From a virus: a DNA stretch of 60,451 nucleotides. A program made the translations under genes and the position numbers. The DNA is taken from positions 1 to 60,451 of IMG/VR virus record IMGVR_UViG_3300043449_000416. One strand, written 5' to 3'. Below the pieces are notes generated by a model. It did no database searches. It had not been told where the DNA came from and saw only the letters and a list, made by a program, of their open reading frames with translations. Shown piece after piece: positions 24,202 through 48,064 of the stretch; position 1 is the first letter of the stretch; each line of letters starts with the position of its first letter.

Positions 24202-26688
24202 CTAGTAGTAATCAACTTTTCTTCTGTATGGCAGCTCTTCATCCAGCTCATCTGTCGGCAGGCGGATGAACCCCCCTTGGCGGAACCGCATCAGGGCCAT
24301 TATTGTCGTGTCGCAGTTGTGGACCAGCACACCGTTAGCGTAGTAGCAGTGAGTGTCAGCTACCGTCAGGTTGTATACTGGCTTTTTCTCTTCTCCTACG
24401 TTTATACTGTCTACTTGCGCACGTGTTGCCGCAAAGTTCGGCCCGGCCAGAAGACGATAGAAACTGCGTACTGCACTCCTTACAGGTACGGATAACCGGG
24501 TTTTCAGCCTGCTCTTTGAGCTTTTTCTCTCTAGCCTCACGGGCGGCCCCACCAAGTTTAAGGTACTTAGCTGTGCGATCTCTGTGCCAAGCTCTACCTT
24601 CCTCTGAACGGTGCCACTCGCTCGCCTTGCCACGAACCCTGTTAAGCAGGGCAAGTTGCTCGGGGCTTCTCGCTCTAATGCTGCGCTCTTCGGAGTGGCG
24701 TCTGCAGTGCTCTTCGCGAGATACGCACTCAAGGTTAGTGACGCCGTTGTTATCCCAATTTCCGTCCTTGTGGTGAACCTCCCAGCCGTCTGGAATAGGC
24801 CCATTGTGGAACTCCCACACAGCGCGGTGCAAGTTGAACCCTCCGGCTCGCTGAAAATACTTCCGAAGAGACGCTCTCGGAGAGTTCGGATAGCGGTTGT
24901 AAGTGTAGCCGTTGAACACAACAGACTCCGTGTGAACTTCTGGTTTAGTCGGCCACGGCATTTGCGCCCCCATTGCTTGGTCACCTTTACTGTATCAGTC
25001 ACAGTAATAGTGTCAAGACGCTTCCACCCGCACGTTGTGGCGATTGGGTGGTTCCCGGTGCCTTCCAGAGTGTGGCCTCCAGCGCGCAGAATAAATGTAT
25101 TTCGCACCCCTGTGCAACCTGCGGCCTGTACCACTTTCGCCCCCGCTGGCGTTTTAACGACGTCCCCGATCTTTATTGTTTCAATAGGTTGCTCTATTCC
25201 ATCAGCCATCAGAACTTGCGTTCCGGCTACAAAACAGTGGTCGTCGTTTTCAGCGAACGGGAATCCTGCAACTTCCTCGACCAGCTCCTCTGCCCACCGT
25301 TTAGGCGGCACCCAGACCAGCCCCGAGGAGATGATATCAGACACAGAGTTCAGACGCGCCATCTTGCTATTCGGGTTGTTTACCGAGCCCCTGACAGGGG
25401 TGTACTCCTGCACCATGAGCCCCGAGCGGCGCATCTCCTGATACAACGGCGTCCCCGAACTCTTTTTCTCGACGATGAACACGTCGGGTTCCCACTGCTG
25501 ATACTCCTCCAGAGCCAACGCTTTGAGCTCTGGAAACTCCATGCGCCGCTTGATGGCATTGAGCAGGATGATCTGGTGCATGTTCTCCTCGTCATTGAAG
25601 AACACTCCCCACGTTGTCAGAGACGTGAAGTCAGCCCGGTTGTGGGCTTCTGCAGCGGCGTCGAGAGACATGATGATATACTCTACAGCCGGTGGGTCGT
25701 CGTCTGGCCACAGCCGCCACCAATCTCTCTTGATTATGGCAGCTTCTTCGCCCGTCGGATTCTGCTGATACTGCGCGTTCCACTGGAACACCGGCATGGA
25801 GGCCTTGGTCCGCAGCAGTGCTTGTAGATCAAAAAACTCAGGCCAGAGGGCTCTTTGAATTATATTTTCTTCACCAGTGACGTTGTCTTTCTGGACTACG
25901 TCTAAAATAGCCGGAAACTCCACCACCTCATATTGGTCGGAGTTCTCGTTGTTGGCCATATCTTGAATAAGGCGTCCTGTTAGATCTTTTTTATGCCATC
26001 TTGTATGGACCACGGCCACGCGCCCCCCGGGCATCAGACGCGTCCGGGCCCCGAAGGCGAACCATTCGTAAGCTTTGTCGAATGCCGTGAAGTTTCCGTT
26101 CAAGATATCCTGCTCGGAGTGCGGGTCGTCGACGAGCAGCAGGTCAGCGCCGCGGCCCGCGAGGGCCGATCCCACGCCCGTGGCGTAAAACTCGCATCCT
26201 GTGGTCGTGTTCCAGCGCCCAGCCGACTTGCTGTCAGAGGACAGCGCGAGGTTCGGGAAGACCTGCTGGTAGGGCTCAGAGTCGATGATATTCCGCACCT
26301 TCCGACCGAAATCGACGGCTAGGTCCGTCGTATGCGAGACCAACATGACCTTTTTCCCGGGGTTTCGACCGATGAACCATGCAGGATAGTAGGTTGAGAC
26401 GAGCTGAGACTTGCCGTGGCGGGGTGGGATGTTGACGCAGACCCTGTCTTTGTCCCCCCGCTCGATGTCCATGAGCTCATCCGCTAGAATTCTATGGTGT
26501 CGGCCCACCTTATAGGTACGGTCCATATACTTACAGAAGGCAATCAGGTCATCCTTGGCACCCTGCAGCGTGGCGCGCTTGTCCAACTCCTCGAGCATTT
26601 TCTCGATCTCGAGCAGTTCCTGCTCGTCGAGCATATCCACGCTCTTGAGGAGCGTTTCGAGCTCTGCTCGATTGAAGTCGGAGCTCAT
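24202..26688 (-). CDS. terL: Terminase large subunit, interrupted by an intein
   Basis: Walker A (IPPRHGKSQ), Walker B (ADLLLVDDPH) and a C-terminal nuclease region; intein blocks CFVAGTQVLMADG... (A), TGNHP (B) and ...YYANGVLVHN/CDTTI (F/G). Confidence 0.85.
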   Translation of the reverse strand: MSSDFNRAELETLLKSVDMLDEQELLEIEKMLEELDKRATLQGAKDDLIAFCKYMDRTYKVGRHHRILADELMDIERGDKDRVCVNIPPRHGKSQLVSTYYPAWFIGRNPGKKVMLVSHTTDLAVDFGRKVRNIIDSEPYQQVFPNLALSSDSKSAGRWNTTTGCEFYATGVGSALAGRGADLLLVDDPHSEQDILNGNFTAFDKAYEWFAFGARTRLMPGGRVAVVHTRWHKKDLTGRLIQDMANNENSDQYEVVEFPAILDVVQKDNVTGEENIIQRALWPEFFDLQALLRTKASMPVFQWNAQYQQNPTGEEAAIIKRDWWRLWPDDDPPAVEYIIMSLDAAAEAHNRADFTSLTTWGVFFNDEENMHQIILLNAIKRRMEFPELKALALEEYQQWEPDVFIVEKKSSGTPLYQEMRRSGLMVQEYTPVRGSVNNPNSKMARLNSVSDIISSGLVWVPPKRWAEELVEEVAGFPFAENDDHCFVAGTQVLMADGIEQPIETIKIGDVVKTPAGAKVVQAAGCTGVRNTFILRAGGHTLEGTGNHPIATTCGWKRLDTITVTDTVKVTKQWGRKCRGRLNQKFTRSLLCSTATLTTAIRTLRERLFGSIFSEPEGSTCTALCGSSTMGLFQTAGRFTTRTEIGITTASLTLSAYLAKSTADATPKSAALEREAPSNLPCLTGFVARRASGTVQRKVELGTEIAQLSTLNLVGPPVRLERKSSKSRLKTRLSVPVRSAVRSFYRLLAGPNFAATRAQVDSINVGEEKKPVYNLTVADTHCYYANGVLVHNCDTTIMALMRFRQGGFIRLPTDELDEELPYRRKVDYY
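24316..25236 (-). other. Intein within terL (aa 485-791 of the precursor)
   Basis: N-terminal Cys after ...FAENDDH, C-terminal HN followed by +1 Cys; boundaries computed from the ORF. Confidence 0.75.
24356..24973 (-). CDS. HNH endonuclease ORF nested inside the terL intein, in a different reading frame
   Basis: HRAVWEFHNGPIPDGWEVHHKDGNWDNNGVTNLECVSREEHCRRH is an unambiguous HNH motif; the ORF exactly fills the gap between the intein N- and C-terminal splicing blocks and has a GGTGA-like RBS upstream of its ATG. Confidence 0.7.
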   Translation of the reverse strand: MGAQMPWPTKPEVHTESVVFNGYTYNRYPNSPRASLRKYFQRAGGFNLHRAVWEFHNGPIPDGWEVHHKDGNWDNNGVTNLECVSREEHCRRHSEERSIRARSPEQLALLNRVRGKASEWHRSEEGRAWHRDRTAKYLKLGGAAREAREKKLKEQAENPVIRTCKECSTQFLSSSGRAELCGNTCASRQYKRRRREKASIQPDGS

Positions 26689-30704: not shown

Positions 30705-30947
30705 ATGGAACCAAAGAAACACCAACACTACACCCGCACCACCTTCGGTAAGATGCCTATAGGCACGAGGTTCCGCAGCACGCCGACAGCGACGGCCTAT
30801 GAGTGGCTTAAGGTCAGCACGCGCACCGCGCGGATCAACGGTAACGGTGCAGCATATTACTTCCGCATGGACGACCCGCTCTACGTCAACATTGGACACT
30901 GGGCAGAGATGTTAGGCAACAGCCTAACGGGGGACGACGATGCTTGA
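30705..30947 (+). CDS. Hypothetical protein (80 aa)
   Basis: ATG with AAGGAG RBS; carries hairpin copy gttaggcaacagcctaac at 30912-30929 in its 3' coding region. Confidence 0.5.
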   Translation: MEPKKHQHYTRTTFGKMPIGTRFRSTPTATAYEWLKVSTRTARINGNGAAYYFRMDDPLYVNIGHWAEMLGNSLTGDDDA

Positions 30948-31311
30948 ACCGAGAAAACATAGCCACTGGGCCGCTAGGCCGCGGCTAAAATTCCTCGGGG
31001 GCGTAGCCGAATTTGACCTGTGGTGGAGGGACGACCAGTCAGCGCCGGGTATCCCGAGCGGCGACATCCTGCCGTATTTGCGCTTGGTGACTATAGATAT
31101 GCCATCCGTAGACGACTGGGACGAGCTCCGCGTACCGCTGCATCTGAACGAGGAGACGAACTCAAGTATGGAGCCCGCGATGCGCAGACTCAAGGGCAGG
31201 TGGGGCTGTATAAATCTGACCCTAGCGCAGCTGGCCGAGATACGCACATACCTGCAATGCTTCGCCCCGTGGGTGTTAGGAGGAAGGCTAACAGATGGTC
31301 AACAAACATAA
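30940..31311 (+). CDS. Hypothetical protein (123 aa), paralog of 33211..33516
   Basis: Shares EPR...WAAR...FLGG...FDLW(W/F) and L..L...YL..FAPWV motifs with the 33211 ORF. Confidence 0.5.
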   Translation: MLEPRKHSHWAARPRLKFLGGVAEFDLWWRDDQSAPGIPSGDILPYLRLVTIDMPSVDDWDELRVPLHLNEETNSSMEPAMRRLKGRWGCINLTLAQLAEIRTYLQCFAPWVLGGRLTDGQQT

Positions 31312-31564
31312 CGGCAGCGGCAGCGGCTACGGCAGCGGCAGCGGCACCGGCAGCGGCACCGGCTACGGCAACGGCAGCGGCTACGGCAGCGGCAGCGGCA
31401 CCGGCTACGGCAACGGCAGCGGCTACGGCTACGGCACCGGCACCGGCTACGGCAGCGGCAACGGCAACGGCTACGGCGACGGCAGCGGCAACGGCTACGG
31501 CAGCGGCAACGGCAACGGCTACGGCGACGGCAGCGGCAACGGCTACGGCGACGGTAAGGGTTAG
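31295..31564 (+). CDS. Gly/Ser/Tyr/Asn-rich low-complexity repeat protein (89 aa)
   Basis: Translation is almost entirely (GSG/GNG/GYG)n, encoded by tandem ggcagcggc/tacggc/aacggc units; AGGAGG RBS upstream. Confidence 0.5.
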   Translation: MVNKHNGSGSGYGSGSGTGSGTGYGNGSGYGSGSGTGYGNGSGYGYGTGTGYGSGNGNGYGDGSGNGYGSGNGNGYGDGSGNGYGDGKG

Positions 31565-32152: not shown

Positions 32153-32172
32153 GGTAAATATCTCACATCTAT

Positions 32173-32201
32173 TGACATAGAGTGTCGTATAGTGTAGTAT
32201 A
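32173..32201 (+). promoter_or_regulatory. Sigma70-like promoter (TTGACA-N17-TAGTAT)
   Basis: -35 TTGACA at 32173-32178, -10 TAGTAT at 32196-32201, in the 148-bp intergenic gap upstream of 32301; flanked by tagtgta / gtgttg repeats. Confidence 0.45.
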
Positions 32202-32265: not shown

Positions 32266-32283
32266 GTTAGGCCGGAGCCTAAC
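32266..32283. repeat. GTTAG-N-CTAAC hairpin family member (perfect palindrome)
   Basis: gttaggccggagcctaac followed by accaaggagaaactaaaATG. Confidence 0.6.
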
Positions 32284-32300: not shown

Positions 32301-33209
32301 ATGAACAACGTCACACAAATGGAACTGAACTTCGCACCTGTGGTGCAGTCAATCTCATCGTCGTCCATGCTGGTCGAGCTGGGCATCGGCGTATGGACCG
32401 GGCGGCGCATGGACAAGCGCGCATCCGAGGAAGTCGTCGCTGCCAACCATGCCGATAAGGGCGTGGCGCGGGTGACCAAGAGCCTACTGGGGGCCTGTGA
32501 TGAACTGGACGCGCTCGTGAAGTTCGCAGCAAACGTGCGGAACATCCACTACAACAGCACCCTGCCTTGGTCGGACATGGGCCCGCGTCTGCTCCCCACC
32601 CCGCGCTACTTCGCATACCACAAGAACATGAGCGCCTTGCAGACAGAGTTCTTCCGCATGGTGGACGCGTTCGTCGCTGCTTACGATCTTGAGGTGGCTG
32701 CGGCACAGGCCAAGCTGGGTGACCTGTTCGATGTTAGAGAGTACCCTAACGCCTCCGAGTTGCGTCAGAAGTTCTCGTTCAAGTTCAACTACATCCCCCT
32801 GCCTGACGCTGGCGACTGGCGGCTCGACATCAACAACGAAGCACTAACATCACTTCGGGACCAATACGCCACGCACTACACGGGACAGCTGACCGCGGCC
32901 ATGAACGACATCTGGAAACGCCTCTACGAAACGCTGACCACGCTGTCGCGCCAGCTATCCGACAAGACCGAGGATGGTAAAACGCCGCGCATCTTCGCCT
33001 CTGTGTTCGACCGCATGCAGGAGGTACTGGACCTGATGGAGACGTGCAACATGACGGGCGACATGACCATGCAGTTGATGCAGCGCAAGCTGGCAGCGGC
33101 CTTCAATGGGGTCAGCGCCGAGGCTGTCAAAGACGATGCCTACTTACGCCGTAACACAAAGCAGGCTATCGACGTGGCCATCAAGTCCCTGCCTAGCTTG
33201 GGCTGGTAA
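32301..33209 (+). CDS. Hypothetical protein (302 aa)
   Basis: Well-formed ORF with RBS; first gene after the internal promoter; precedes the MoxR/VWA block. Confidence 0.55.
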   Translation: MNNVTQMELNFAPVVQSISSSSMLVELGIGVWTGRRMDKRASEEVVAANHADKGVARVTKSLLGACDELDALVKFAANVRNIHYNSTLPWSDMGPRLLPTPRYFAYHKNMSALQTEFFRMVDAFVAAYDLEVAAAQAKLGDLFDVREYPNASELRQKFSFKFNYIPLPDAGDWRLDINNEALTSLRDQYATHYTGQLTAAMNDIWKRLYETLTTLSRQLSDKTEDGKTPRIFASVFDRMQEVLDLMETCNMTGDMTMQLMQRKLAAAFNGVSAEAVKDDAYLRRNTKQAIDVAIKSLPSLGW

Positions 33210-33210
33210 C

Positions 33211-33516
33211 ATGGAGCCGCGCTGGTACCGCGCGGCGTGGGCCCGCGAAGATCACACCTTCCTCGGGGGGACGAACGCATTCGACCTGTGGTTCGACGAA
33301 ACTCTGGACGTGCGGGTGGCGATGGGCGCTACGCCAGATAAATGGGACTGGTTCTACTGGTCCCGAGCACGTCAGAAGTATGAGTGGGGGACAGACGATA
33401 TGAGCCATGTCGACCACGACAAGGTGTTAGTCGAAGCCCTAACTTACCTGCGTATCTTTGCACCGTGGGTAGAAGAAGAAATGACCAAAGGAACGAAAGA
33501 ATATCACAGCGAATAG
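33211..33516 (+). CDS. Hypothetical protein (101 aa), paralog of 30940..31311
   Basis: MEPRWYRAAWARED..FLGG..FDLWF...LTYLRIFAPWV; carries a hairpin copy (33426-33443) at the same relative position as its paralog. Confidence 0.5.
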   Translation: MEPRWYRAAWAREDHTFLGGTNAFDLWFDETLDVRVAMGATPDKWDWFYWSRARQKYEWGTDDMSHVDHDKVLVEALTYLRIFAPWVEEEMTKGTKEYHSE

Positions 33517-33527
33517 GAGAAGAAAGA

Positions 33528-34133
33528 ATGACTAGAGTAACCAACGAGCTACGCCGCACTCTGCAGACCGCCATCATGAAAGACCTGCCAAGCCGGGATT
33601 ATACTAAGGAGATACACGCGCTGGTGCAGGGTGTCATCGCCGAGCACATGCCACCCAAGGTTAGATCCCTCTACGACAATACGGAGCTGCGCAGTTATTT
33701 GCGCTTAGATAATATCGAGGTGGTTAAAGGTAACGCTAGGGTTCCCCTGCATAGCACTGACTCTGCCTATGTGTATGGATTGACTAAATTTATGACCATC
33801 CGCATGGACGACGCCGAGAATGCTGTGAGGCTACCCGAGGGTTCACTCTACAGGTCAGTCGTGATCAAACTGCACGAGGCGGGCTCTGTCGCTGCCTACT
33901 TCGCACAGGAAGAACTTCGGGTAAGCGTGCGTAACCGTGTACGTGCTAACCTTGCAGCGGCAAGGACGTTCAAGCAACTCTATGCAAACCTCGAGCCCGA
34001 GCTGCACCACTACATCCCCAAGGATGAGGTCAAGGCACAGGTGCCTGCCTGTGTTGCGCCCGTGGTGGACGACCTGCGTAAGCTGGGCGCTGTTCTGCCG
34101 GAAACGCCGAAAGCTACGGGAGAGAAGCCATGA
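33528..34133 (+). CDS. Hypothetical protein (201 aa)
   Basis: ATG with RBS ataggagaagaaagaATG. Confidence 0.5.
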   Translation: MTRVTNELRRTLQTAIMKDLPSRDYTKEIHALVQGVIAEHMPPKVRSLYDNTELRSYLRLDNIEVVKGNARVPLHSTDSAYVYGLTKFMTIRMDDAENAVRLPEGSLYRSVVIKLHEAGSVAAYFAQEELRVSVRNRVRANLAAARTFKQLYANLEPELHHYIPKDEVKAQVPACVAPVVDDLRKLGAVLPETPKATGEKP

Positions 34134-34336
34134 CCTTCTGGTACGTCCTCATCATATCCTTCTCCGCCCCCTTTGAGGGCCTGTCCACCGTCGTGCCGTA
34201 TGCCGATCCGCAAGCCTGCGGGGAAGCTATCTTGGCTATTGAGGCAGCACTGTCTCATTCGGCGGGGATCAATGCAATTCAGTGCAAGGAGACGTCGGTC
34301 GCGATGTCATCGATCAGACCAAAGCGTCGGCCCTGA
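34130..34336 (+). CDS. Hypothetical small protein (68 aa), hydrophobic N-terminus
   Basis: ATGA-coupled to the upstream ORF; MTFWYVLIISFSAPF... Confidence 0.4.
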   Translation: MTFWYVLIISFSAPFEGLSTVVPYADPQACGEAILAIEAALSHSAGINAIQCKETSVAMSSIRPKRRP

Positions 34337-34372
34337 TATTAGTACTACGTGTAACTTGTATACCAACAACAA

Positions 34373-34390
34373 GTTAGGGCATCCCCTAAC
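34373..34390. repeat. GTTAG-N-CTAAC hairpin family member
   Basis: gttagggcatcccctaac, about 25 nt upstream of the MoxR-like gene. Confidence 0.6.
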
Positions 34391-34414
34391 GCCATCATCT
34401 AATGGAGAACTAGA

Positions 34415-35512
34415 ATGTCTAACCAAGCTGTAAACATGTACGCTGTCGGTCTTGATCAGATCGCCGCACTCATCAAGGCCACGGGCCACAAGCGCACCAC
34501 TCTGGTGCAGGGTCACATGGGCACCGGGAAATCCTCGCTGCTCCGCGCACTGTCGGCGGCACTGCCGACCCACACGCCGTGCTACTTTGACTGCACGACC
34601 AAAGACTTGGGTGACATCACCCTGCCGCGCATCGCCGAGGCTACCAAAGACGCCGCCTATGTTAGTTACGCGACTAACGAAGAACTTGGCGCGCATCACG
34701 GCGGGCCGATCATCCTGATGGTTGACGAGTATGGTAAGGCTAACCCATCCGTGAAGAACGCGCTGCTGCGTCTCATGCTCGAGCGTAAGATCGGCAGCTA
34801 CACCCTGCACCCTGACAGCATCATCTTTGCCACCACTAACCTTGGTGCCGAGGGCGTCGGTGACTTGTTGCCGCCCCATGCCCGTAACCGCATCACTGTC
34901 GTCACTGCCCGCAAGCCAAGCAACATGGAGTGGATCGAGTGGGGCATCAACGCTGGCGTGGATCACACCCTGCTTGGCTGGTGCAAAGACAATCCGCAGC
35001 TGTTCCACAGCTTCGACGACTACAAGAACCCCGACGACAACCCCTACATCTTCCACCCCAAGCAACAGCGCGCGGCCTTCGTTACGCCTCGCTCACTGGA
35101 AGCGGCATCGGATATCTTGAAGGAGCGGCTGCACTTCGACGACCAGACCACCACGGCTGCTCTCATGGGCACTATCGGTGAGCGCGGTGCGATGGACCTG
35201 ATGGCCTTCGTCAAGCTGGCGGATCAGCTGCCCTCGCTCGAGAGTATCAAGACTTCGCCCCAGACAGCCAAAGTGCCAACGTCTGCCGCCGCTGTGTGCA
35301 TGGTTGTGTATCGCACGCTGGCCACCATCGAGAAGGAGTGGATCGACAACTGGATGATCTACATGGACCGTCTCGATACCGAGGCGCAGGGTATGTTCGC
35401 CAACGGCGTGCGTGCACCGAAGTATGGCCGTCAGGCGTTGGTCATGACCAACAAGAACTTCACCCAGTGGGCTATGAGTAACAGCTACCTTTTCGCCGCT
35501 GATAAACGGTGA
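34415..35512 (+). CDS. MoxR-like AAA+ ATPase (CbbQ/NorQ/CobS-type)
   Basis: Walker A GHMGTGKSSL, Walker B IILMVDEYGKANPSVKNALLRLMLER, overall AAA_5-like layout; a hairpin copy lies inside at 34661-34678. Confidence 0.7.
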   Translation: MSNQAVNMYAVGLDQIAALIKATGHKRTTLVQGHMGTGKSSLLRALSAALPTHTPCYFDCTTKDLGDITLPRIAEATKDAAYVSYATNEELGAHHGGPIILMVDEYGKANPSVKNALLRLMLERKIGSYTLHPDSIIFATTNLGAEGVGDLLPPHARNRITVVTARKPSNMEWIEWGINAGVDHTLLGWCKDNPQLFHSFDDYKNPDDNPYIFHPKQQRAAFVTPRSLEAASDILKERLHFDDQTTTAALMGTIGERGAMDLMAFVKLADQLPSLESIKTSPQTAKVPTSAAAVCMVVYRTLATIEKEWIDNWMIYMDRLDTEAQGMFANGVRAPKYGRQALVMTNKNFTQWAMSNSYLFAADKR

Positions 35513-35516
35513 AGAC

Positions 35517-35720
35517 ATGGCAAAAAATAGTGGAAAGAAATGGAGCTCCGCGGAGCTGACCAAACTGTTCTTCTATTGGAAAGAAGGCGAAACCTTTGAG
35601 ACGATAGCAAAACGGTTGGGCCGCACTAAGGGCGCGGTCCAGCAAAAACTATACGAATACGACATACACACAGACGAGCGTATCCGTGAGAGCGCCGCAG
35701 ATGGAGACGACGATGTTTAA
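35517..35720 (+). CDS. Small helix-turn-helix DNA-binding protein (67 aa)
   Basis: WSSAELTKLFFYWKEGETFETIAKRLGRTKGAVQQKL resembles an HTH; acidic tail. Confidence 0.45.
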   Translation: MAKNSGKKWSSAELTKLFFYWKEGETFETIAKRLGRTKGAVQQKLYEYDIHTDERIRESAADGDDDV

Positions 35721-36972
35721 TATAGGTAAACCACTCAGCGCCGAACAGCGCCTGCAGAAGGCCGTGATCGACATCATGGCCAACAACAAATACATCGCCC
35801 TTGCGGGCATCCTGATGATCGGCAATCGCAGCGTCGAGGATGATGTTAGGCAATGCCCTACCGCCTACACCAACGGGCGGGACGAGGTCTATGGTCGTGA
35901 CTTCGTCGATAAACTCAACGACGCCGAGCTACGCTTCCTAGTGCTGCACGAGTGCTATCACAAACTCTATCGGCACCTGACCACGTGGCGCTGGATGTAT
36001 GAAGAGAACGCTCAGCTGGCCAACCAAGCCTGTGACTTCGTCATTAACATCAAGCTGGTCGATGACAACAAGACCGACAACTTTGCCACCATGACAGGCG
36101 TGCTCAAGATCGGCTGTCTCGACGAGAAGTACCGTGCATGGGACAGCGCACAGGTGTTCCATGACCTCAAGAAGGGTGGCGGTAAGGGTCAGGGTCAGGG
36201 TCAGGGTCAGGGTCAGGGTCAGGGTCAGGGTCAGGGTCAGGGTCAGGGTCAGGGTGGCGAGGGCACTGGTTTCGATGAGCACGGCTGGGACGACGCCAAG
36301 GATATGACCGCGCAGGAGCGGGATGAGTTGGCCCGTGAGATTGACGAAGCGATCCGTCAGGGCGCGCTGATGGCTGGCAAGATGGGCTCTGGCGGTGACC
36401 GGGACTTGGTCGAGTTGCTCCAACCGCAGGTGGATTGGCGCGAGGTGCTACGTGACTTCATCACCAGCACATGTGCGGGGTCTGACTACTCCACGTGGCG
36501 TAAACCCAATCGACGTTACATCGGCGCTGGCGTGTATATGCCGAGTGGTATCTCCGAGCAGATCGGCGAGATCGTGGTGGCTATCGACACGTCCGGCTCT
36601 ATCGGAGGGCCCCAGCTATCCGCCTTCTTGTCCGAGGTGGGCAGCATCGCCGAAACCGTTAACCCCGAGGCTATCCGCCTCCTCTACTGGGACACGCGGG
36701 TCTGCGGCGACGAGACTTACAAGGGAGAGGAAGTGGCCAACCTCACCAAGTCGACCAAGCCCAAGGGCGGCGGCGGCACCACAGTGGAGTGCGTGCCACA
36801 GTATCTGCAGGACCAGCAGATCAAGGCTCAGTGCGTCATCGTGCTGACTGATGGCTATCTGGGTGGATCGTGGGGCGAGTGGCACCACCCGCTCCTGTGG
36901 GTCATCCTCGACAACAAGAACGCCGTGCCTAGCGTGGGCACAGCTGTGCACATCAAGCAGCGGGAGATGTAG
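35701..36972 (+). CDS. VWA-domain protein with N-terminal HExxH metallopeptidase-like motif (partner of the MoxR-like ATPase)
   Basis: HECYH (HExxH) near the N-terminus; MIDAS-type VAIDTSGSIGG; (GQ)n linker; the MoxR plus VWA pairing is a known two-gene module. Confidence 0.65.
   Translation: METTMFNIGKPLSAEQRLQKAVIDIMANNKYIALAGILMIGNRSVEDDVRQCPTAYTNGRDEVYGRDFVDKLNDAELRFLVLHECYHKLYRHLTTWRWMYEENAQLANQACDFVINIKLVDDNKTDNFATMTGVLKIGCLDEKYRAWDSAQVFHDLKKGGGKGQGQGQGQGQGQGQGQGQGQGQGGEGTGFDEHGWDDAKDMTAQERDELAREIDEAIRQGALMAGKMGSGGDRDLVELLQPQVDWREVLRDFITSTCAGSDYSTWRKPNRRYIGAGVYMPSGISEQIGEIVVAIDTSGSIGGPQLSAFLSEVGSIAETVNPEAIRLLYWDTRVCGDETYKGEEVANLTKSTKPKGGGGTTVECVPQYLQDQQIKAQCVIVLTDGYLGGSWGEWHHPLLWVILDNKNAVPSVGTAVHIKQREM
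36181..36258 (+). repeat. (GGTCAG)n hexanucleotide microsatellite encoding a poly-Gly-Gln linker
   Basis: About 11 perfect tandem GGTCAG units from 36187 to 36252, in frame within the VWA gene. Confidence 0.85.
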
Positions 36973-38525: not shown

Positions 38526-39425
38526 ATGGCATCTAACTATCAACACGCGCTTGTCTCATATTGCACGACCCCGGCAGCTAAGGAGACGCATGAGCACTAC
38601 GGGGAGGCGTCCTACCGCGGCGATGAAATAAAGGCCTTCATCAAGGCTACGTGCGTGGCTATGGGCGCTGTTCACCATAACACCGGCCACGACTCTGCTA
38701 CGATCTACCGTCCGGGTGACACGCATGTTATGGGCGATATCGGTTATAAAGATGTTCGGGTAAAGAGCAGAGGCGCGTCAGAGACAATGCGGCAGTACTT
38801 TGTTCGCACATCGACTATCAGAAACGAAAAGTATCGCGACACGCTATGGCAGCATAACATCATTGCCACCAAGTCTATGAAGAACGCGGTTGCCCACGCT
38901 GTGGACTGGTTAAAGCCCATACACGCTGCAGATTCTATACGGCTAACGTCTGTCGCAGCACGCACTATTATTGATAAATCGGTGCACGAGCATGCCGAAA
39001 AAGTAAAGGGTCTATTCAAGCAACTGTTCGGGGAGTCTACCTACGGTAACAAGTTCGATCTGCCGATCTATAATGAACTAAGGTATATCACTTTTGCATC
39101 GCCGGAGTTGAATAAGCTACTTACCGAGTTCAACGAGAACCTTAATGGGTGGCGCGACGCCAAGAGCATTGCCCAGCGCGGCATCCACTATGTGGGGCTG
39201 ACTGATAACTACGGGCAGCTAGTAGCCGATGTGGCCCGCTGCGAGGCGCTGGGACACAGCACGAAGATCAGCGATATTATGCGGTTTCCGGCTATGGGCC
39301 TTCCCGAATGGGTGCAGGGCCGCGTGGCTGTGTTGCAGATGATGTCGCCTCAGACGTATGTTCCGGGTGTTGGCTTACGAGTAGACGATAAAATATTCTA
39401 TGTCATGGAGGACGAGGTGGAATGA
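38526..39425 (+). CDS. Hypothetical protein (299 aa); C-terminal domain shared with the next ORF
   Basis: C-terminus ...LPEWVQGRVAVLQMMSPQTYVPGVGLRVDDKIFYVME aligns with the C-terminus of 39422..39811. Confidence 0.5.
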   Translation: MASNYQHALVSYCTTPAAKETHEHYGEASYRGDEIKAFIKATCVAMGAVHHNTGHDSATIYRPGDTHVMGDIGYKDVRVKSRGASETMRQYFVRTSTIRNEKYRDTLWQHNIIATKSMKNAVAHAVDWLKPIHAADSIRLTSVAARTIIDKSVHEHAEKVKGLFKQLFGESTYGNKFDLPIYNELRYITFASPELNKLLTEFNENLNGWRDAKSIAQRGIHYVGLTDNYGQLVADVARCEALGHSTKISDIMRFPAMGLPEWVQGRVAVLQMMSPQTYVPGVGLRVDDKIFYVMEDEVE

Positions 39426-39811
39426 AGGGGAGAGTGCACGATATGATGCTAAGGGATCGCCTTGTACGGGCTGATCTATCCCGCGCAGCCGCCGGTACGG
39501 ACTCGCCACGTGTAACGCAGATTAAAGGTAGGGACAAAGACGTATCAGCCCTACGCGCCCAGTGGACGGGCGATATAGAGAATGTTTACCGGGTACTAGT
39601 CGGTCCGACTATCGAGGTTGTGTGCCTTGGCATCGACAGCGTAGACAAAGAGGTCGAAGGTACTTACGCTGATATGTCCGAGCTACCTGCGTGGATGCAG
39701 GAGCGTGTTGCCGTGCTGTCCATGATGAAGGTGGACCCGCCACAGACTAAGATCGAGGGTATCGGCATGCGTGTTGATGAGAGCGTGTATTGGGTGATTA
39801 AGGGCGAGTGA
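39422..39811 (+). CDS. Hypothetical protein (129 aa); C-terminal domain paralogous to the upstream ORF
   Basis: ...LPAWMQERVAVLSMMKVDPPQTKIEGIGMRVDESVYWVIK. Confidence 0.5.
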   Translation: MKGRVHDMMLRDRLVRADLSRAAAGTDSPRVTQIKGRDKDVSALRAQWTGDIENVYRVLVGPTIEVVCLGIDSVDKEVEGTYADMSELPAWMQERVAVLSMMKVDPPQTKIEGIGMRVDESVYWVIKGE

Positions 39812-45358: not shown

Positions 45359-45621
45359 TTGCCATGCCATACACGAAGTCGCCGCGTCCTTATAAGGCCG
45401 AATACCAGAAACAAATAGAACGTGGTGAGCACCCGGACCGCATGGAGCGGCAGCGTGCTCGGCGTGCCTTGGACAAGAAGGGCGTTGACCGCACAGGCAA
45501 GGACGTGAGCCACAAGAAAGCGTTGGCCAAGGGGGGCAGCAACGCTGACGGCTATAAGCTAGAGAGCCCCTCGAAGAACCGTAGCCGGAACGGCCATAAA
45601 CCCGGTGAGAAAAAAGGTTAG
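45355..45621 (+). CDS. Small basic hypothetical protein (88 aa)
   Basis: Arg/Lys-rich ORF ATGA-coupled to the upstream gene. Confidence 0.4.
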   Translation: MIAMPYTKSPRPYKAEYQKQIERGEHPDRMERQRARRALDKKGVDRTGKDVSHKKALAKGGSNADGYKLESPSKNRSRNGHKPGEKKG

Positions 45622-45634
45622 GGAAAACCCTAAC
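45617..45634. repeat. GTTAG-N-CTAAC hairpin family member (perfect palindrome)
   Basis: gttagggaaaaccctaac, immediately upstream of the helicase start. Confidence 0.6.
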
Positions 45635-45649
45635 GTCTCGGAGAACGAT

Positions 45650-48064
45650 ATGCAGATCATTGATAATAAGGCGTTGCTTCTCAAGCTACGCAATCCAAAA
45701 CAAGTCACTACGATCATCCCTAAGAGTCGCGCTATCAGCGAGCACGAGGTCATTGTAAACTGGGGCGTACAGGAAACGCACACTCTACGTGGGCTGAACA
45801 TCAAGGTGCCGTCACCCATCGAAGGTCGCTATAACTGGACGGGCAAGTTCGCCCCAATGGCGCACCAGCGCACGACAGCATCTTTCCTGACCATGTACCA
45901 GAGAGCGTTTTGCTTCAACGAAGCCGGGACTGGTAAGACGGCTAGTGCGATCTGGGCTGCAGACTTCCTCATGAAGCAGGGTATCATCAAGCGTGCCTTG
46001 GTCATATGTCCGCTCTCGATCATGGACAGCGCGTGGCGCGCGGACTTGTTTACGTTTGCCATGCACCGGACTGTAGACATCGCCCATGGTACCGCAGACA
46101 AACGTAAGAAAATCATCGCTCGGAAACCTGATTTCCTCATCATCAACTACGACGGTGTTGAGATTGTCAAAGAAGACATCGCGGCGGCGGGCTACGACCT
46201 CATTATCGTTGACGAATGCTTTGTTGCTGGCACCCCCGTGCACACCCCGAACGGTATAACGGCGATTGAGAAGCTCAAAGTAGGAGATGCGGTGTTTACA
46301 AGTGATGGGGTACGTAATATAAAAACGGTATCCAAGCGAAAACCAAACAGTCTTGTGGAGGTAAAATTTGATACCGGGGAAATACTTACATGCACACCAG
46401 AGCATCCTTTCTTCACTGACTGGGGTTGGGTGCCCGCCAGAGCTCTTGGGGGTAGACGCATCGTGTCTTTATCTGCGCTGTCCGATCTGCGGAAACCACT
46501 ACAAAGTGGCCCAGAGCAAATGGCGCTTTCACCGGAAGACAAAAACACACACTGGGATGACCTGTGCTCGATCCTGCGGTCGGAAGAGGTGGCATCTCCT
46601 GCACCCGGGTCAGTCAGCGCTAAAGTTTCTGACTGTGGAGCAGAGGGCGAAGGGGGTTCGGTCTGGGTTTCACCGTACACCAGAGCAGCGCGAGCACTTA
46701 TCGAAGGTGGCGATATCGAAAGGGATTCGTCCGATGGTTCGTGGCGGCAACGGTACGGGCATGACTGGGGCGGAGACGTTGCTAGCGGCGCAGCTTCCGG
46801 CTGGTTGGCGATGGAACTTCCAAATAGCGTTGGGCAAGAGGCTTCCCGGCTATCCTACGAATTACAAACTCGACTTCGCGTGGCCGGAGAAGAAACTTGG
46901 GTTGGAAGTGGATGGAGGCAGCCATCGCACGACGAAGGCTCAGGAGAGGGACAGGAAGAAAACGGAAAAGCTTTCGGAATTAGGGTGGGAAGTGTTACGT
47001 ATAGAGAACCGGGATGCGACGAATACGTCTACAACCTCGAAGTTGATGGAACTCCTAACTACTTTGTTGGGGGACAACGAGCACTAGTACACAACTGCAG
47101 CCACTACAAGAATGCTCAGAGCAAGCGCTGGAAGGTGCTGAACTCGCTGGTTAAGCCCGAGACGTGGCTCTGGATGATGACGGGTACCCCGGCGGCACAA
47201 GGGCCCGAGGATGCTTTCGGCTTAGCGAAGCTGGTAAACCCGACGGGTGTGCCTAAGTTCTTCAACGCTTGGAAGGACATGGTGATGTACAAGGTATCTC
47301 AGTACCGCTGGAAACCCAAGGAACACTCTGAGCATACCGTGCATCGGGCCCTGCAGCCCGCAATTCGCTACACCAAGGAAGAATGCTTAGACCTACCAGA
47401 TATGCTCTACGTTAAACGAGACGTGGCGCTGACCAAGCAGCAGGAGCTCTACTACAATCGCCTCAAGAAGCAGATGGTCATGGAAGTGGCTGGGGCGCAG
47501 ATCACGGCGGTAAACGCTGCGGTGATGATGGGCAAACTCCTGCAAATCTCGGCGGGCGCAAGCTACACCGAATCCGGCGACACAGTGCAGTTCGATATCA
47601 ACAATCGCTACAGCGTCCTCAAAGAGGTCATCGCTGAGAGCACTCACAAGGTGCTGGTCTTTGTGCCTTTCAAACACGTGATAGAGATGTTGACCGCGCA
47701 GCTGACCAAGGATGGCATTACAAACGCTGTCATCAGCGGCGACGTAAAGGCTGGGGACCGAACTGACATCTTTAGGCAGTTCCAAAACCAACCTGACCCT
47801 AGAGTGCTGGTCATCCAACCGCAGGCTGCCGCACATGGCGTGACGCTCACTGCGGCGAATACAGTTGTCTGGTGGGCACCGACGTCATCGCTCGAAACCT
47901 ACGCACAGGCTAACGCCCGGGTGCACCGCAAAGGGCAATCCAACAAGTGCACCGTAGTTCAGCTGCAGGGGTCGGGCGTAGAGCGCAGGGTCTACAAGAT
48001 GCTCGACGAGAAGATTGACGTGCATACTAAGGTTGTCGATCTTTATAAAGAATTGCTTGACTAG
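45650..48064 (+). CDS. SNF2-family (DExH) helicase interrupted by an intein in motif II
   Basis: Motif I NEAGTGKT, motif II LIIVDE|C...HN|CSH (intein inserted), motif III MMTGTP, motif VI QANARVHRKGQ; start refined to the ATG at 45650. Confidence 0.8.
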   Translation: MQIIDNKALLLKLRNPKQVTTIIPKSRAISEHEVIVNWGVQETHTLRGLNIKVPSPIEGRYNWTGKFAPMAHQRTTASFLTMYQRAFCFNEAGTGKTASAIWAADFLMKQGIIKRALVICPLSIMDSAWRADLFTFAMHRTVDIAHGTADKRKKIIARKPDFLIINYDGVEIVKEDIAAAGYDLIIVDECFVAGTPVHTPNGITAIEKLKVGDAVFTSDGVRNIKTVSKRKPNSLVEVKFDTGEILTCTPEHPFFTDWGWVPARALGGRRIVSLSALSDLRKPLQSGPEQMALSPEDKNTHWDDLCSILRSEEVASPAPGSVSAKVSDCGAEGEGGSVWVSPYTRAARALIEGGDIERDSSDGSWRQRYGHDWGGDVASGAASGWLAMELPNSVGQEASRLSYELQTRLRVAGEETWVGSGWRQPSHDEGSGEGQEENGKAFGIRVGSVTYREPGCDEYVYNLEVDGTPNYFVGGQRALVHNCSHYKNAQSKRWKVLNSLVKPETWLWMMTGTPAAQGPEDAFGLAKLVNPTGVPKFFNAWKDMVMYKVSQYRWKPKEHSEHTVHRALQPAIRYTKEECLDLPDMLYVKRDVALTKQQELYYNRLKKQMVMEVAGAQITAVNAAVMMGKLLQISAGASYTESGDTVQFDINNRYSVLKEVIAESTHKVLVFVPFKHVIEMLTAQLTKDGITNAVISGDVKAGDRTDIFRQFQNQPDPRVLVIQPQAAAHGVTLTAANTVVWWAPTSSLETYAQANARVHRKGQSNKCTVVQLQGSGVERRVYKMLDEKIDVHTKVVDLYKELLD
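46217..47095 (+). other. Intein within the SNF2 helicase gene (aa 205-497 of the track ORF)
   Basis: N-terminal CFVAGTPVHTPNG...TCTPEHPFFT (blocks A/B); C-terminal EYVYNLEVDGTPNYFVGGQRALVHN followed by Cys. Confidence 0.75.
46368..47087 (+). CDS. Vsr-like (DUF559-type PD-(D/E)XK) endonuclease ORF nested in the helicase intein, in a different frame
   Basis: C-terminal YKLDFAWPEKKLGLEVDGGSH...ERDRKKTEKLSELGWEVLRI matches the Vsr/DUF559 nuclease signature; upstream CPICG zinc motif and a NUMOD-like segment (GFHRTPEQREHLSKVAISKGI). Confidence 0.6.
   Translation: MIPGKYLHAHQSILSSLTGVGCPPELLGVDASCLYLRCPICGNHYKVAQSKWRFHRKTKTHTGMTCARSCGRKRWHLLHPGQSALKFLTVEQRAKGVRSGFHRTPEQREHLSKVAISKGIRPMVRGGNGTGMTGAETLLAAQLPAGWRWNFQIALGKRLPGYPTNYKLDFAWPEKKLGLEVDGGSHRTTKAQERDRKKTEKLSELGWEVLRIENRDATNTSTTSKLMELLTTLLGDNEH

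What the first reader, a model, noticed from the sequence alone, without database searches (positions are those of the whole stretch)
32301..36972. MoxR-like AAA+ ATPase plus VWA/HExxH protein module with accessory genes and an internal promoter
A near-consensus promoter (32173-32201) precedes a block comprising a 302-aa unknown protein, a paralog-family small protein, two further unknown ORFs, a MoxR-type AAA+ ATPase (34415..35512), a small HTH protein, and a VWA protein with an HExxH motif and MIDAS site (35701..36972). MoxR plus VWA pairs act as chaperone-like or metal-insertion machines in bacteria. Their role in phages is not established, and here the pair has its own promoter and a co-encoded HTH protein.
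Basis: partly seen in the sequence, partly recalled or inferred. Interest (0 to 1): 0.6.

Follow-up and report, generated by a model that had tools for sequence, protein, structure and literature searches.

The report
Conserved phage/plasmid AAA+–VWA–DUF3150 gene trio
The flagged genes are real, but the conserved unit is a trio (a helical DUF3150 protein, a MoxR/midasin-class AAA+ ATPase and a peptidase-VWA protein); the ATPase and peptidase-VWA pair also occurs in many other phages (N4 gp24/gp25 relatives), while the full trio was also found in one group of cyanophages, on conjugative plasmids and in integrative elements, and its function is still unknown.

Summary
All seven ORFs exist. The ATPase keeps Walker A/B, sensor-1 and candidate Arg-finger and sensor-2 residues. 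The last protein is DUF2201_N (HExxH) plus a VWA domain with a complete MIDAS motif. These motifs persist in homologs at 22-31% identity.

The promoter-like site (TTGACA-17-TAGTAT, 32172-32200) recurs at the same relative position in 49 of 83 related contigs.

The 302-aa protein, a divergent DUF3150, is the true third partner: it lies upstream of the ATPase in 82 of 82 informative related contigs. The three ORFs between them and the small HTH gene are lineage-specific inserts.

The same trio, in other gene orders, occurs in cyanophage MinM2, about 60 mostly Burkholderiales plasmids, and chromosomal ICE-like islands. The pair without DUF3150 corresponds to N4 gp24/gp25, core middle genes of unknown function, and to the MoxR plus peptidase-vWA pair described in jumbo phages.

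Most likely this is an ATP-driven machine that remodels or cleaves proteins inside the invaded cell during the replication phase, not during virion assembly. The target is unknown. I rate it a new variant of a known kind, of moderate interest.

The parts
32172..32200 (+). sigma-70-like promoter TTGACA-17-TAGTAT in the 148-nt gap before the trio
   Evidence: 10 of 12 matches. A site with at least 10 of 12 matches lies upstream of the orthologous gene in 49 of 83 related contigs, most listed ones about 85-170 nt from the start.
32266..32283 (.). palindrome/hairpin GTTAGGCC-GGAG-CCTAAC (stem extends to TGTTAGGC/GCCTAACA), 7 nt before the SD of the 302-aa gene
   Evidence: One of 8 copies in the window, all in the early/replication arm.
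32301..33209 (+). 302-aa DUF3150-like protein, the conserved third partner of the ATPase/VWA pair
   Evidence: Pfam DUF3150 scores 17.1 bits, below the 24.9 cut-off, but close homologs carry PF11348. hhalign gives 99.7% probability to the plasmid homolog. It lies upstream of the ATPase in 82 of 82 contigs. The model is a helical bundle, pLDDT 70.6.
33211..33516 (+). 101-aa ORF, weak paralog of 30940-31311; lineage-specific insert
   Evidence: Homolog in only 2 of about 160 loci.
33528..34133 (+). 201-aa Nmad5-like protein; lineage-specific insert
   Evidence: Pfam Nmad5 E 0.001. The L003 homolog aligns over the whole profile at 26.8 bits against a cut-off of 27. Present in 4 loci.
34130..34336 (+). 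68-aa ORF of unknown function; lineage-specific insert
   Evidence: One weak homolog. No family hit.
34373..34390 (.). palindrome/hairpin GTTAGGG-CATC-CCCTAAC, 13 nt before the SD of the ATPase gene
   Evidence: An equivalent element with symmetry-keeping stem changes lies upstream of the ATPase gene in many relatives.
34415..35512 (+). 365-aa AAA+ ATPase of the AAA_5 (MoxR/midasin/dynein-related) class, homolog of N4 gp24
   Evidence: Walker A is at 34511-34534 and Walker B at 34715-34729.
35517..35720 (+). 67-aa GcrA-N/Myb-like HTH protein; insert found in one sub-lineage
   Evidence: Clear homologs (80% identity) in 10 loci, which overlap on shared contigs, and weak ones (30%) in 2 more.
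35713..36972 (+). 419-aa zincin-like peptidase (DUF2201_N) plus VWA (DUF2201) protein, homolog of N4 gp25. HECYH is at 35947-35961 and MIDAS DTSGS at 36586-36600.
36181..36255 (+). (GGTCAG)12.5 repeat encoding the (GQ)n low-complexity linker between the peptidase and VWA parts; its length varies among relatives
   Evidence: The model is disordered at residues 157-187.

Best explanation
The unit is a three-gene operon: a DUF3150 protein, an AAA+ ATPase and a peptidase-VWA protein. It is read from a conserved sigma-70-type promoter in the early/replication arm of a roughly 60-kb uncultured tailed phage.

By analogy with MoxR-VWA and midasin systems, I infer the following. The ATPase forms a ring. 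The VWA domain holds a protein ligand through an acidic residue bound at its MIDAS metal site. ATP hydrolysis pulls on or releases that ligand. In the phage and plasmid versions, the fused zincin domain cuts it.

The helical DUF3150 protein is either the adaptor that presents the target or the first substrate. Its invariant Asp38 sits in a poorly ordered loop and is a candidate MIDAS ligand; this is speculation.

The same trio is carried by phages, conjugative plasmids and integrative elements. In the phages it sits with replication genes. I therefore think it acts inside the newly invaded cell, either in replication-complex maturation or in host take-over and counter-defence. I do not think it acts on the virion.

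Shown: gene content, motif conservation, co-occurrence, promoter conservation and genomic position. Inferred: ring formation, MIDAS-ligand coupling, proteolysis, timing and target.
For: Co-occurrence:
- A302 lies upstream of the ATPase in 82 of 82 related contigs, at a median gap of 86 nt. The median gap from ATPase to VWA gene is 68 nt.
- The trio recurs in other gene orders: phage MinM2 (ATPase-x-DUF3150-xxx-VWA), a Burkholderia conjugative plasmid, about 60 PLSDB plasmids, and ICE-like islands.
- The ICE-like islands also carry large ParB_N proteins and integrases; the Sbno-like helicase (2 of 3 islands), DUF2958 and a TrwC-domain protein (1 each) are not in all of them.

Catalytic residues:
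- K39, D104/E105, N142, R159 and P225-R226 of the ATPase are kept at 22-24% identity.
- MIDAS D292/S294/S296/T356/D380 are invariant in all seven distant VWA proteins.
- HExxH plus a downstream Asp are kept in the phage, plasmid and N4-like versions.

Class:
- The best solved relatives of the ATPase profile are the midasin AAA domains (E 1.5e-33).
- The VWA model matches Rea1/MDN1 MIDAS and NorD domains.

Position and timing:
- The trio lies 2.4 kb into the + strand arm, which also encodes PolA, an SNF2 helicase, an exonuclease and a primase. It is on the opposite strand to the portal and terminase genes.
- N4 gp24/gp25 are middle transcripts (PMC4193335).
- The promoter is conserved.

Selection: the ATPase is the most conserved protein of the region. 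Its median identity is 73%, against 62% for PolA, in loci chosen on the VWA protein.
Against: - There is no experimental datum for any member. No substrate is known.
- The DUF3150 model is of moderate confidence (pTM 0.42) and its fold search gave only generic helical bundles.
- The ICE clade has lost HExxH and the Asp ligand, so proteolysis cannot be the universal activity.
- N4-like phages and Rhizobium phage RHph_TM3_14A have the pair without a detectable DUF3150, so the third partner is not obligatory.
- Very high ATPase conservation is unusual for counter-defence proteins.
- The published proposal for the jumbo-phage pair is virion assembly (PMC7824862).
Confidence: 0.5

Rival explanations
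1. Virion-assembly chaperone and protease. The ATPase/VWA pair folds or processes structural proteins, as proposed for the jumbo-phage pair and as shown for tail development of Acidianus two-tailed virus.
For: PMC7824862 describes the same architecture, MoxR plus metallopeptidase-vWA, in group 2.2 jumbo phages and proposes this role. The ATV precedent is cited in PMC7159879.
Against: Homologous trios sit on conjugative plasmids and ICE-like islands that build no virion. In the window the genes lie in the replication arm, on the opposite strand to the portal and terminase genes. N4 gp24/gp25 are middle genes, not late ones (PMC4193335).
Confidence: 0.12
2. Dedicated replication or DNA-processing factor. 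The machine loads, matures or recycles a component of the element's own replisome or recombination apparatus. It does not target a host protein.
For: The genes consistently neighbour DNA enzymes: PolA, SNF2, exonuclease and primase in the window; a DNA helicase directly after gp25 in the N4-like phage CB4; PolA in the Rhizobium phage; a primase in MinM2; ParB_N and an Sbno-like helicase in ICEs. The ATPase is more conserved than PolA, as expected of a core function.
Against: No DNA-binding domain was detected in any of the three proteins. The neighbouring replication genes differ from element to element, so no common client is evident.
Confidence: 0.2
3. Metal-cofactor insertion or chelatase-like activase, comparable to CobS/CobT/CobN, BchI/BchD/BchH, NorQ/NorD or CbbQ/CbbO.
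For: The pairing is the same AAA_5-class ATPase plus VWA. There are weak sequence hits to CobS (E 0.36) and BchI (E 0.0018, far below its cut-off). NorD appears among the fold matches.
Against: No metalloenzyme client or CobN/BchH-like subunit co-occurs in phages, plasmids or ICEs. The hits to chelatase families are far below their thresholds. The fused zincin peptidase has no counterpart in those systems.
Confidence: 0.06
4. A defence or exclusion cassette carried as cargo, related to the predicted MoxR-vWA ternary conflict systems and directed against competing elements.
For: MoxR-vWA ternary systems with a variable third component are predicted conflict systems (PMC7159879). Plasmids and ICEs often carry defence cargo. 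One ICE locus has SIR2 and SMC-like genes nearby.
Against: PADLOC gave no specific hit: nothing for the VWA or DUF3150 proteins, and only P-loop-level hits for the ATPase. The trio is a fixed, highly conserved core of a phage lineage with no lysogeny genes seen (none searched for) (82 of 82 contigs), and the pair is a core gene set of the N4-like phages (PMC4193335). There is no VMAP, iSTAND or FtsH component.
Confidence: 0.07

Closest known systems
Bacteriophage N4 gp24 (AAA ATPase) and gp25 (vWFA), two of the 14 core genes of N4-like phages (Schitoviridae)
   Same: They are homologous. BLASTP against the gp24-like protein of phage CB4 gives E 1e-18 over the full length. tblastn against gp25-like proteins gives E 4e-29 at 97% coverage. 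HExxH and MIDAS are kept. The genes are middle or replication-region genes of unknown function (PMC2784036, PMC4193335).
   Different: Identity is only 22-31%. No DUF3150 partner was detected in the N4-like locus examined; the two ORFs between gp24 and gp25 of CB4 do not match. The window phage is not N4-like: no virion RNA polymerase was detected, and its PolA is nearest to Rhizobium RHph_TM3_14A and Pseudomonas KPP25 at about 36% identity.
MoxR AAA+ plus metallopeptidase-vWA pair of group 2.2 jumbo phages (Iyer et al. 2021, PMC7824862)
   Same: Same two-protein architecture as described in words there: an ATPase plus a VWA co-chaperone with an N-terminal metallopeptidase.
   Different: That description has no third DUF3150 component and places the pair in virion assembly. 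Here the context is replication genes, and the trio extends to plasmids and ICEs. I did not compare sequences with the cited accessions.
MoxR-VWA chaperone pairs (RavA-ViaA, NorQ-NorD, CbbQ-CbbO) and midasin/Rea1
   Same: The ATPase fold class is AAA_5, and midasin is the best solved relative. The VWA domain has a complete MIDAS site and matches Rea1/MDN1 MIDAS and NorD. The expected mechanism is that a MIDAS-bound ligand is remodelled by ATP hydrolysis.
   Different: The window ATPase is below threshold for the MoxR-proper model AAA_3. It has a family-specific C-terminal half with no Pfam match. The VWA protein carries a zincin domain. The client is unknown and the carriers are mobile elements.
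MoxR-vWA-centric ternary conflict systems (VMAP, iSTAND, FtsH and beta-propeller types; Kaur et al. 2020, PMC7159879)
   Same: Same logic: an ATPase-VWA core plus a distinct third protein, sometimes with a peptidase fused to the VWA component.
   Different: The third component here is DUF3150, not VMAP, iSTAND or FtsH. There are no effector arrays. The carriers are phages, plasmids and ICEs rather than chromosomes of multicellular bacteria.

Membership tests
AAA+ ATPase, AAA_5 / MoxR-midasin-dynein-related class | Pfam AAA_5 at or above its gathering score | tested here: met
   23.8 bits against a cut-off of 22, a marginal pass. A profile of 11 family members matches four midasin AAA domains, summed E 1.5e-33.
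AAA+ ATPase, AAA_5 / MoxR-midasin-dynein-related class | Walker A GxxGxGK[ST], Walker B hhhhDE, sensor-1 Asn, Arg finger and sensor-2 Arg conserved | tested here: met
   GHMGTGKS, LMVDE, N142, R159 and P225-R226. K39, N142, R159, P225 and R226 are invariant, and D104/E105 are at least 90% conserved, across homologs of 22-24% identity. Assignment of R159 and R226 as Arg finger and sensor 2 is by position only.
AAA+ ATPase, AAA_5 / MoxR-midasin-dynein-related class | Helix-2 insert and pre-sensor-1 beta-hairpin in the fold | not tested
   No structure model of the ATPase was made; both prediction jobs went to the other two proteins.
MoxR proper (Pfam AAA_3) | AAA_3 at or above its gathering score | tested here: not met
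   16.4 bits against a cut-off of 27, E 0.0085. No NCBIfam MoxR model hit.
DUF2201_N + DUF2201 (putative metallopeptidase plus VWA-like) | Both Pfam domains above threshold, in this order | tested here: met
   111.5 bits against 23.2, and 51.6 bits against 26.4. phrog_1314 gives E 8e-85; that phrog's label 'HNH endonuclease' is a misnomer.
DUF2201_N + DUF2201 (putative metallopeptidase plus VWA-like) | Zincin HExxH motif plus a third ligand conserved | tested here: met
   H79-E80-x-x-H83 and D108 are invariant in 33 relatives and kept in the phage, plasmid and N4-like homologs. They are lost in the ICE clade. Catalysis was not tested. The fold of the N-terminal domain could not be matched separately because VWA hits dominated.
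VWA domain with MIDAS | VWA fold | tested here: met
VWA domain with MIDAS | DxSxS ... T ... D metal-site residues | tested here: met
   D292, S294, S296, T356 and D380 are invariant in close and distant homologs.
DUF3150 (PF11348) | Pfam model at or above its gathering score | tested here: inconclusive
   The window protein scores 17.1 bits against a cut-off of 24.9. Homologs at 62-78% identity carry PF11348. The ICE homolog scores 28.2 bits. hhalign gives 99.7% probability to the plasmid homolog. It is a divergent member by transitive evidence.
N4 gp24/gp25 core-gene pair | Sequence homology of both proteins to gp24-like and gp25-like proteins, adjacent genes on the same strand | tested here: met
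   tested against phage CB4 proteins annotated as N4 gp24-like and gp25-like. N4 itself was not fetched.
MoxR-vWA ternary conflict systems (Kaur et al. 2020) | Third component is VMAP, an inactive STAND, FtsH or a beta-propeller | tested here: not met
   The third conserved protein is DUF3150. No such domains were found in the neighbourhood.
Chelatase-type systems (CobS/CobT/CobN, BchI/BchD/BchH) | Family-level sequence match, and a large substrate-binding subunit or client enzyme encoded nearby | tested here: not met
   BchI-ChlI scores 17.5 bits against a cut-off of 467. CobS gives E 0.36. No CobN/BchH-like gene is in any context examined.

The most novel reading that the evidence does not exclude
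The DUF3150-AAA+-peptidase/VWA trio is a general 'establishment machine' of mobile DNA. On this reading it is an ATP-driven protease or remodeller that phages, conjugative plasmids and ICEs all express soon after entering a cell. It would disable or reshape one conserved host factor, such as a defence, nucleoid or replication-control protein. It would also explain why N4 gp24/gp25-type genes are core genes.
Probability: 0.25. Interest if true: 0.75.

Novelty: new variant of a known kind. Interest (0 to 1): 0.45.

Why it matters
The ATPase/VWA pair has been listed for over fifteen years as a core but unexplained gene pair of N4-like phages. In this search it appeared in hundreds of cultured phage genomes: 372 records for the ATPase and 676 for the VWA protein.

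Three results narrow the possibilities:
- In a large environmental phage lineage the pair always travels with a DUF3150 protein.
- The same trio sits on conjugative plasmids and in ICE-like islands.
- The ATPase is more conserved than the DNA polymerase.

Together these argue for a function that does not involve the virion. They also offer genetically tractable systems in which to find the substrate: N4, Rhizobium and cyanophage isolates, and Burkholderia plasmids. The DUF3150-like family is large, with 7,891 clusters at 50% identity, and has no described function.

Tried and rejected
- Nucleotide search of the 5-kb block against 50,697 phage records found no match, so there is no close cultured relative.
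- NCBIfam and PADLOC gave nothing specific.
- Sequence search of the PDB found nothing for the DUF3150 protein. The VWA protein gave only low-complexity hits to its (GQ)n linker, and the single ATPase sequence gave only sub-threshold AAA hits.
- Fold searches with the whole VWA model were swamped by VWA hits, so the peptidase-like N-domain could not be classified structurally. hmmscan of that domain alone found no other peptidase family.
- Apparent DUF3150::DUF2201_N fusion proteins (P0263, P0265, P0296) looked like Rosetta-stone evidence. Two of them run into out-of-frame sequence and the third is a truncated in-frame read-through; I take all three to be assembly artefacts of overlapping genes and rejected them.
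- The genome-contig scan returned only 3 loci because the derived peptide patterns were narrow. Bacterial contexts were recovered instead through.
The motif is its own reverse complement, so strand cannot be read from it.
- Rfam has no family for it.
- Literature searches for DUF3150, DUF2201 and leading-region anti-defence gave nothing on function.

Full report
**What the window is.** The 60,451-base window matches a JGI contig of exactly that length and looks like a complete or nearly complete genome of an uncultured tailed phage.
- One arm, on the minus strand up to about 29.9 kb, encodes the portal and a terminase that carries an intein.
- The other arm, on the + strand from 29.9 to 52.7 kb, encodes small early genes, the block under study, a VRR-NUC-like endonuclease, PolA, an exonuclease, an SNF2 helicase with an intein, and a DUF927 primase-helicase.
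- A 2,105-aa polyvalent protein with LPD39 and a DarB-like C-terminus lies on the minus strand at 52.9-59.2 kb.
- No cultured phage is close at the DNA level. The nearest PolA sequences, at about 36% identity, are from Rhizobium phage RHph_TM3_14A and Pseudomonas phage KPP25.

**Checking the observation.**
- *ATPase.* The 365-aa protein passes Pfam AAA_5 marginally (23.8 bits against 22) and matches phrog_1297 end to end (E 3e-46).
- *VWA protein.* The last protein is DUF2201_N (E 7e-32) plus DUF2201, a VWA-like domain (E 1e-13), and matches phrog_1314 (E 8e-85). That phrog's label 'HNH endonuclease' is clearly a misnomer that has spread into GenBank records.
- *Its start.* Homolog N-termini and the SD position make ATG 35713 a better start than 35701.
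- *Conservation in close relatives.* HECYH, a downstream CDxVIN, and the MIDAS residues DTSGS, GGGGT and LTDGY are invariant in 33 relatives.
- *Conservation in distant relatives.* In seven homologs of 24-31% identity, from the Rhizobium phage, cyanophage MinM2, a Burkholderia plasmid, two ICE-like islands and the N4-like phage CB4, all five MIDAS residues are invariant.
- *ATPase motifs.* The Walker A lysine, Walker B D-E, sensor-1 N142, R159 and P225-R226 persist at 22-24% identity.

**The promoter.** TTGACA-17-TAGTAT at 32172-32200 is a 10-of-12 match. A single such match means little, because the 12-kb region gave 10 sites against 7.8 expected by chance. However, in 83 distinct related contigs, 49 have a match of at least 10 of 12 in the 250 nt upstream of the orthologous gene. 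Most are TTGACA with a 17-nt spacer, most listed ones about 85-170 nt before the start codon. This is good comparative support for a real promoter heading the block. I found no sigma-70-like site on the + strand directly in front of the ATPase gene, so 'the pair has its own promoter' is not supported.

**What the module really is.** I fetched about 160 related IMG/VR loci with the ATPase and the VWA protein as queries and mapped the window's proteins onto them.
- The 302-aa protein, the ATPase and the VWA protein are found in 132, 156 and 158 loci.
- The 101-, 201- and 68-aa ORFs are found in 2, 4 and 1 loci, and the HTH in 12.
- After removing duplicate contigs and truncated loci, a 302-aa homolog lies upstream of the ATPase gene in 82 of 82 cases, at a median gap of 86 nt. 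The ATPase-to-VWA median gap is 68 nt.

The window is therefore unusual in having 1.2 kb of inserted genes between the first two members and a small HTH gene between the last two.

**The inserts.**
- One is probably a divergent Nmad5-domain protein. Its homolog in L003 aligns along the whole Pfam profile at 26.8 bits against a cut-off of 27.
- One is a weak paralog of an upstream gene.
- The HTH resembles the GcrA N-terminal/Myb type.

**The third partner.** The 302-aa protein is a divergent DUF3150.
- It is below threshold itself (17.1 bits against 24.9).
- Homologs at 62-78% identity carry PF11348.
- An ICE homolog scores above threshold.
- hhalign links it to a plasmid homolog at 99.7% probability.
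- A profile search of 1.84 billion representative proteins found 7,891 clusters at E up to 0.001. Nearly all of those listed are single-domain proteins of about 290-320 aa.
- Its model is a helical bundle of moderate confidence with no informative structural neighbour.

**Beyond this phage lineage.** The trio recurs with rearranged gene order, which is strong evidence of a functional link.
- *Synechococcus phage MinM2.* The order is MoxR-family ATPase, one ORF, DUF3150, three ORFs, VWA-like protein, next to a primase.
- *Burkholderia conjugative plasmid NZ_CP014311.1.* The order is ATPase, DUF3150 homolog, a 100-aa ORF, VWA-like protein. It lies between a PRTRC cassette with an SNF2 gene on one side and the type IV secretion genes on the other.
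- *Other plasmids.* About 60 PLSDB plasmids, mostly from Burkholderiales and many of them conjugative, carry ATPase and/or DUF3150 homologs; the two genes are adjacent in those where both hits were listed.
- *Chromosomal islands.* In three bacterial chromosome islands the order is ATPase, DUF3150, VWA. All three also carry a ParB_N protein of about 750 aa; two carry integrases and two a Strawberry-notch-like helicase, and one each has DUF2958, transposases or a TrwC fragment. This is the signature of integrative conjugative or mobilisable elements.
- *A clade difference.* In the ICE clade the HExxH and the downstream Asp are replaced (ARVVLA..., SQLVTH), while the MIDAS is intact. The ATPase-MIDAS coupling therefore looks like the universal core, and proteolysis like an activity that some lineages have given up.

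**The pair without DUF3150.** tblastn finds the ATPase in 372 and the VWA protein in 676 cultured-phage records. These include N4-like phages, rV5-like phages and the Rhizobium phage.
- In the N4-like phage CB4 the hits are the genes annotated as N4 gp24-like and gp25-like, followed directly by a DNA helicase.
- The two ORFs between them do not match DUF3150.
- The literature lists gp24 ('unknown') and gp25 ('vWFA domain') among the 14 core genes of N4-like phages and notes that they are middle transcripts (PMC2784036, PMC4193335, PMC10783043).
- Iyer and colleagues described a MoxR plus metallopeptidase-vWA pair in group 2.2 jumbo phages. They proposed a role in virion assembly, by analogy with Acidianus two-tailed virus (PMC7824862).
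- I found no experimental work on any member, and no paper that mentions the DUF3150 association.

**Mechanism.** The following is established.
- The ATPase belongs to the AAA_5 class. A family profile finds the midasin AAA domains as the best solved relatives (E 1.5e-33).
- It does not reach the MoxR-proper model AAA_3.
- The partner has a complete MIDAS site.

Midasin-Rsa4/Ytm1, RavA-ViaA, NorQ-NorD and the chelatases share one logic, summarised in PMC7159879: the MIDAS metal binds an acidic residue of a client, and ATP hydrolysis in the ring remodels or releases it. I infer the same here, with two additions. The fused zincin domain cleaves the client in most lineages. DUF3150 is the adaptor or first substrate. 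Its invariant Asp38 lies in a low-confidence loop and is a candidate MIDAS ligand, but this is speculation.

**Where and when it acts.** Four observations argue for action inside the invaded cell during the early or replication phase, and against a role in virion assembly:
- its presence on plasmids and ICEs;
- its position among replication genes, opposite the structural arm;
- the conserved sigma-70-type promoter;
- the middle timing of N4 gp24/gp25.

I cannot decide whether the client is the element's own replication machinery or a host factor. The ATPase is the most conserved protein of the region: median 73% identity against 62% for PolA, 59% for the VWA protein and 48% for DUF3150, in loci chosen on the VWA protein. 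This fits a core function or a very conserved target better than a fast arms race.

**Verdict.** The feature is a member of a known but functionally uncharacterised phage gene pair. In this lineage, and on conjugative elements, the pair forms a three-component system with DUF3150 that I could not find described. I rate it a new variant of a known kind, with interest 0.45.

Noticed in passing
window 29893, 30671, 30911, 32266, 34373, 42053, 45617, 52732 (18-nt elements): The palindrome/hairpin GTTAGG-N6-CCTAAC occurs 8 times against 0 expected. All copies lie in the + strand early/replication arm, and at least five lie a few to about 20 nt before an SD and start codon. Related contigs hold 467 distinct instances. 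Their inner positions change while keeping symmetry (T-A/G-C and G-C/C-G). The motif is self-complementary, so strand cannot be inferred. It could be an RNA stem (processing or stability) or an operator for a dimeric protein. No Rfam family matches..
   Followed up: partly
window 33528-34133: The 201-aa ORF inserted between the DUF3150 and ATPase genes is probably a divergent Nmad5 (nucleotide-modification-associated) domain protein. In Dhillonvirus, a point mutation in nmad5 lets the phage escape Tmn defence (PMC11846954)..
   Followed up: partly
window 24202-26688 (-) and 45605-48064 (+): The large terminase and the SNF2 helicase both carry Hint/intein-splicing domains, so this phage genome has two inteins.
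   Followed up: no
window 31295-31564 (+), repeat 31310-31554: An 89-aa ORF is made almost entirely of G-S/T/N-G-Y repeats. The DNA has a 24-nt period in 10 copies. A 191-aa Ala/Thr-rich ORF in another frame overlaps it. No homolog was found in related loci.
   Followed up: no
window 52896-59213 (-): A 2,105-aa polyvalent protein with LPD39 and a DarB-like antirestriction C-terminal region. It is probably an injected early effector.
   Followed up: no
window 38526-39425 and 39422-39811: Two adjacent genes downstream of the trio, both conserved across the lineage, share a C-terminal segment of about 40 aa (50% identity, E 4e-12). Their function is unknown.
   Followed up: no
window 36181-36255: The (GGTCAG)12.5 repeat encodes a (GQ)n linker in the VWA protein. 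Linker length and composition differ in nearly every relative, so it is a hypervariable, disordered spacer.
   Followed up: partly
phage database records, e.g. NC_055823.1, NC_048654.1, OZ196439.1: Homologs of the peptidase-VWA protein are widely annotated as 'HNH endonuclease', following the phrog_1314 label. No HNH domain is detectable. This is an annotation error that is spreading.
   Followed up: partly
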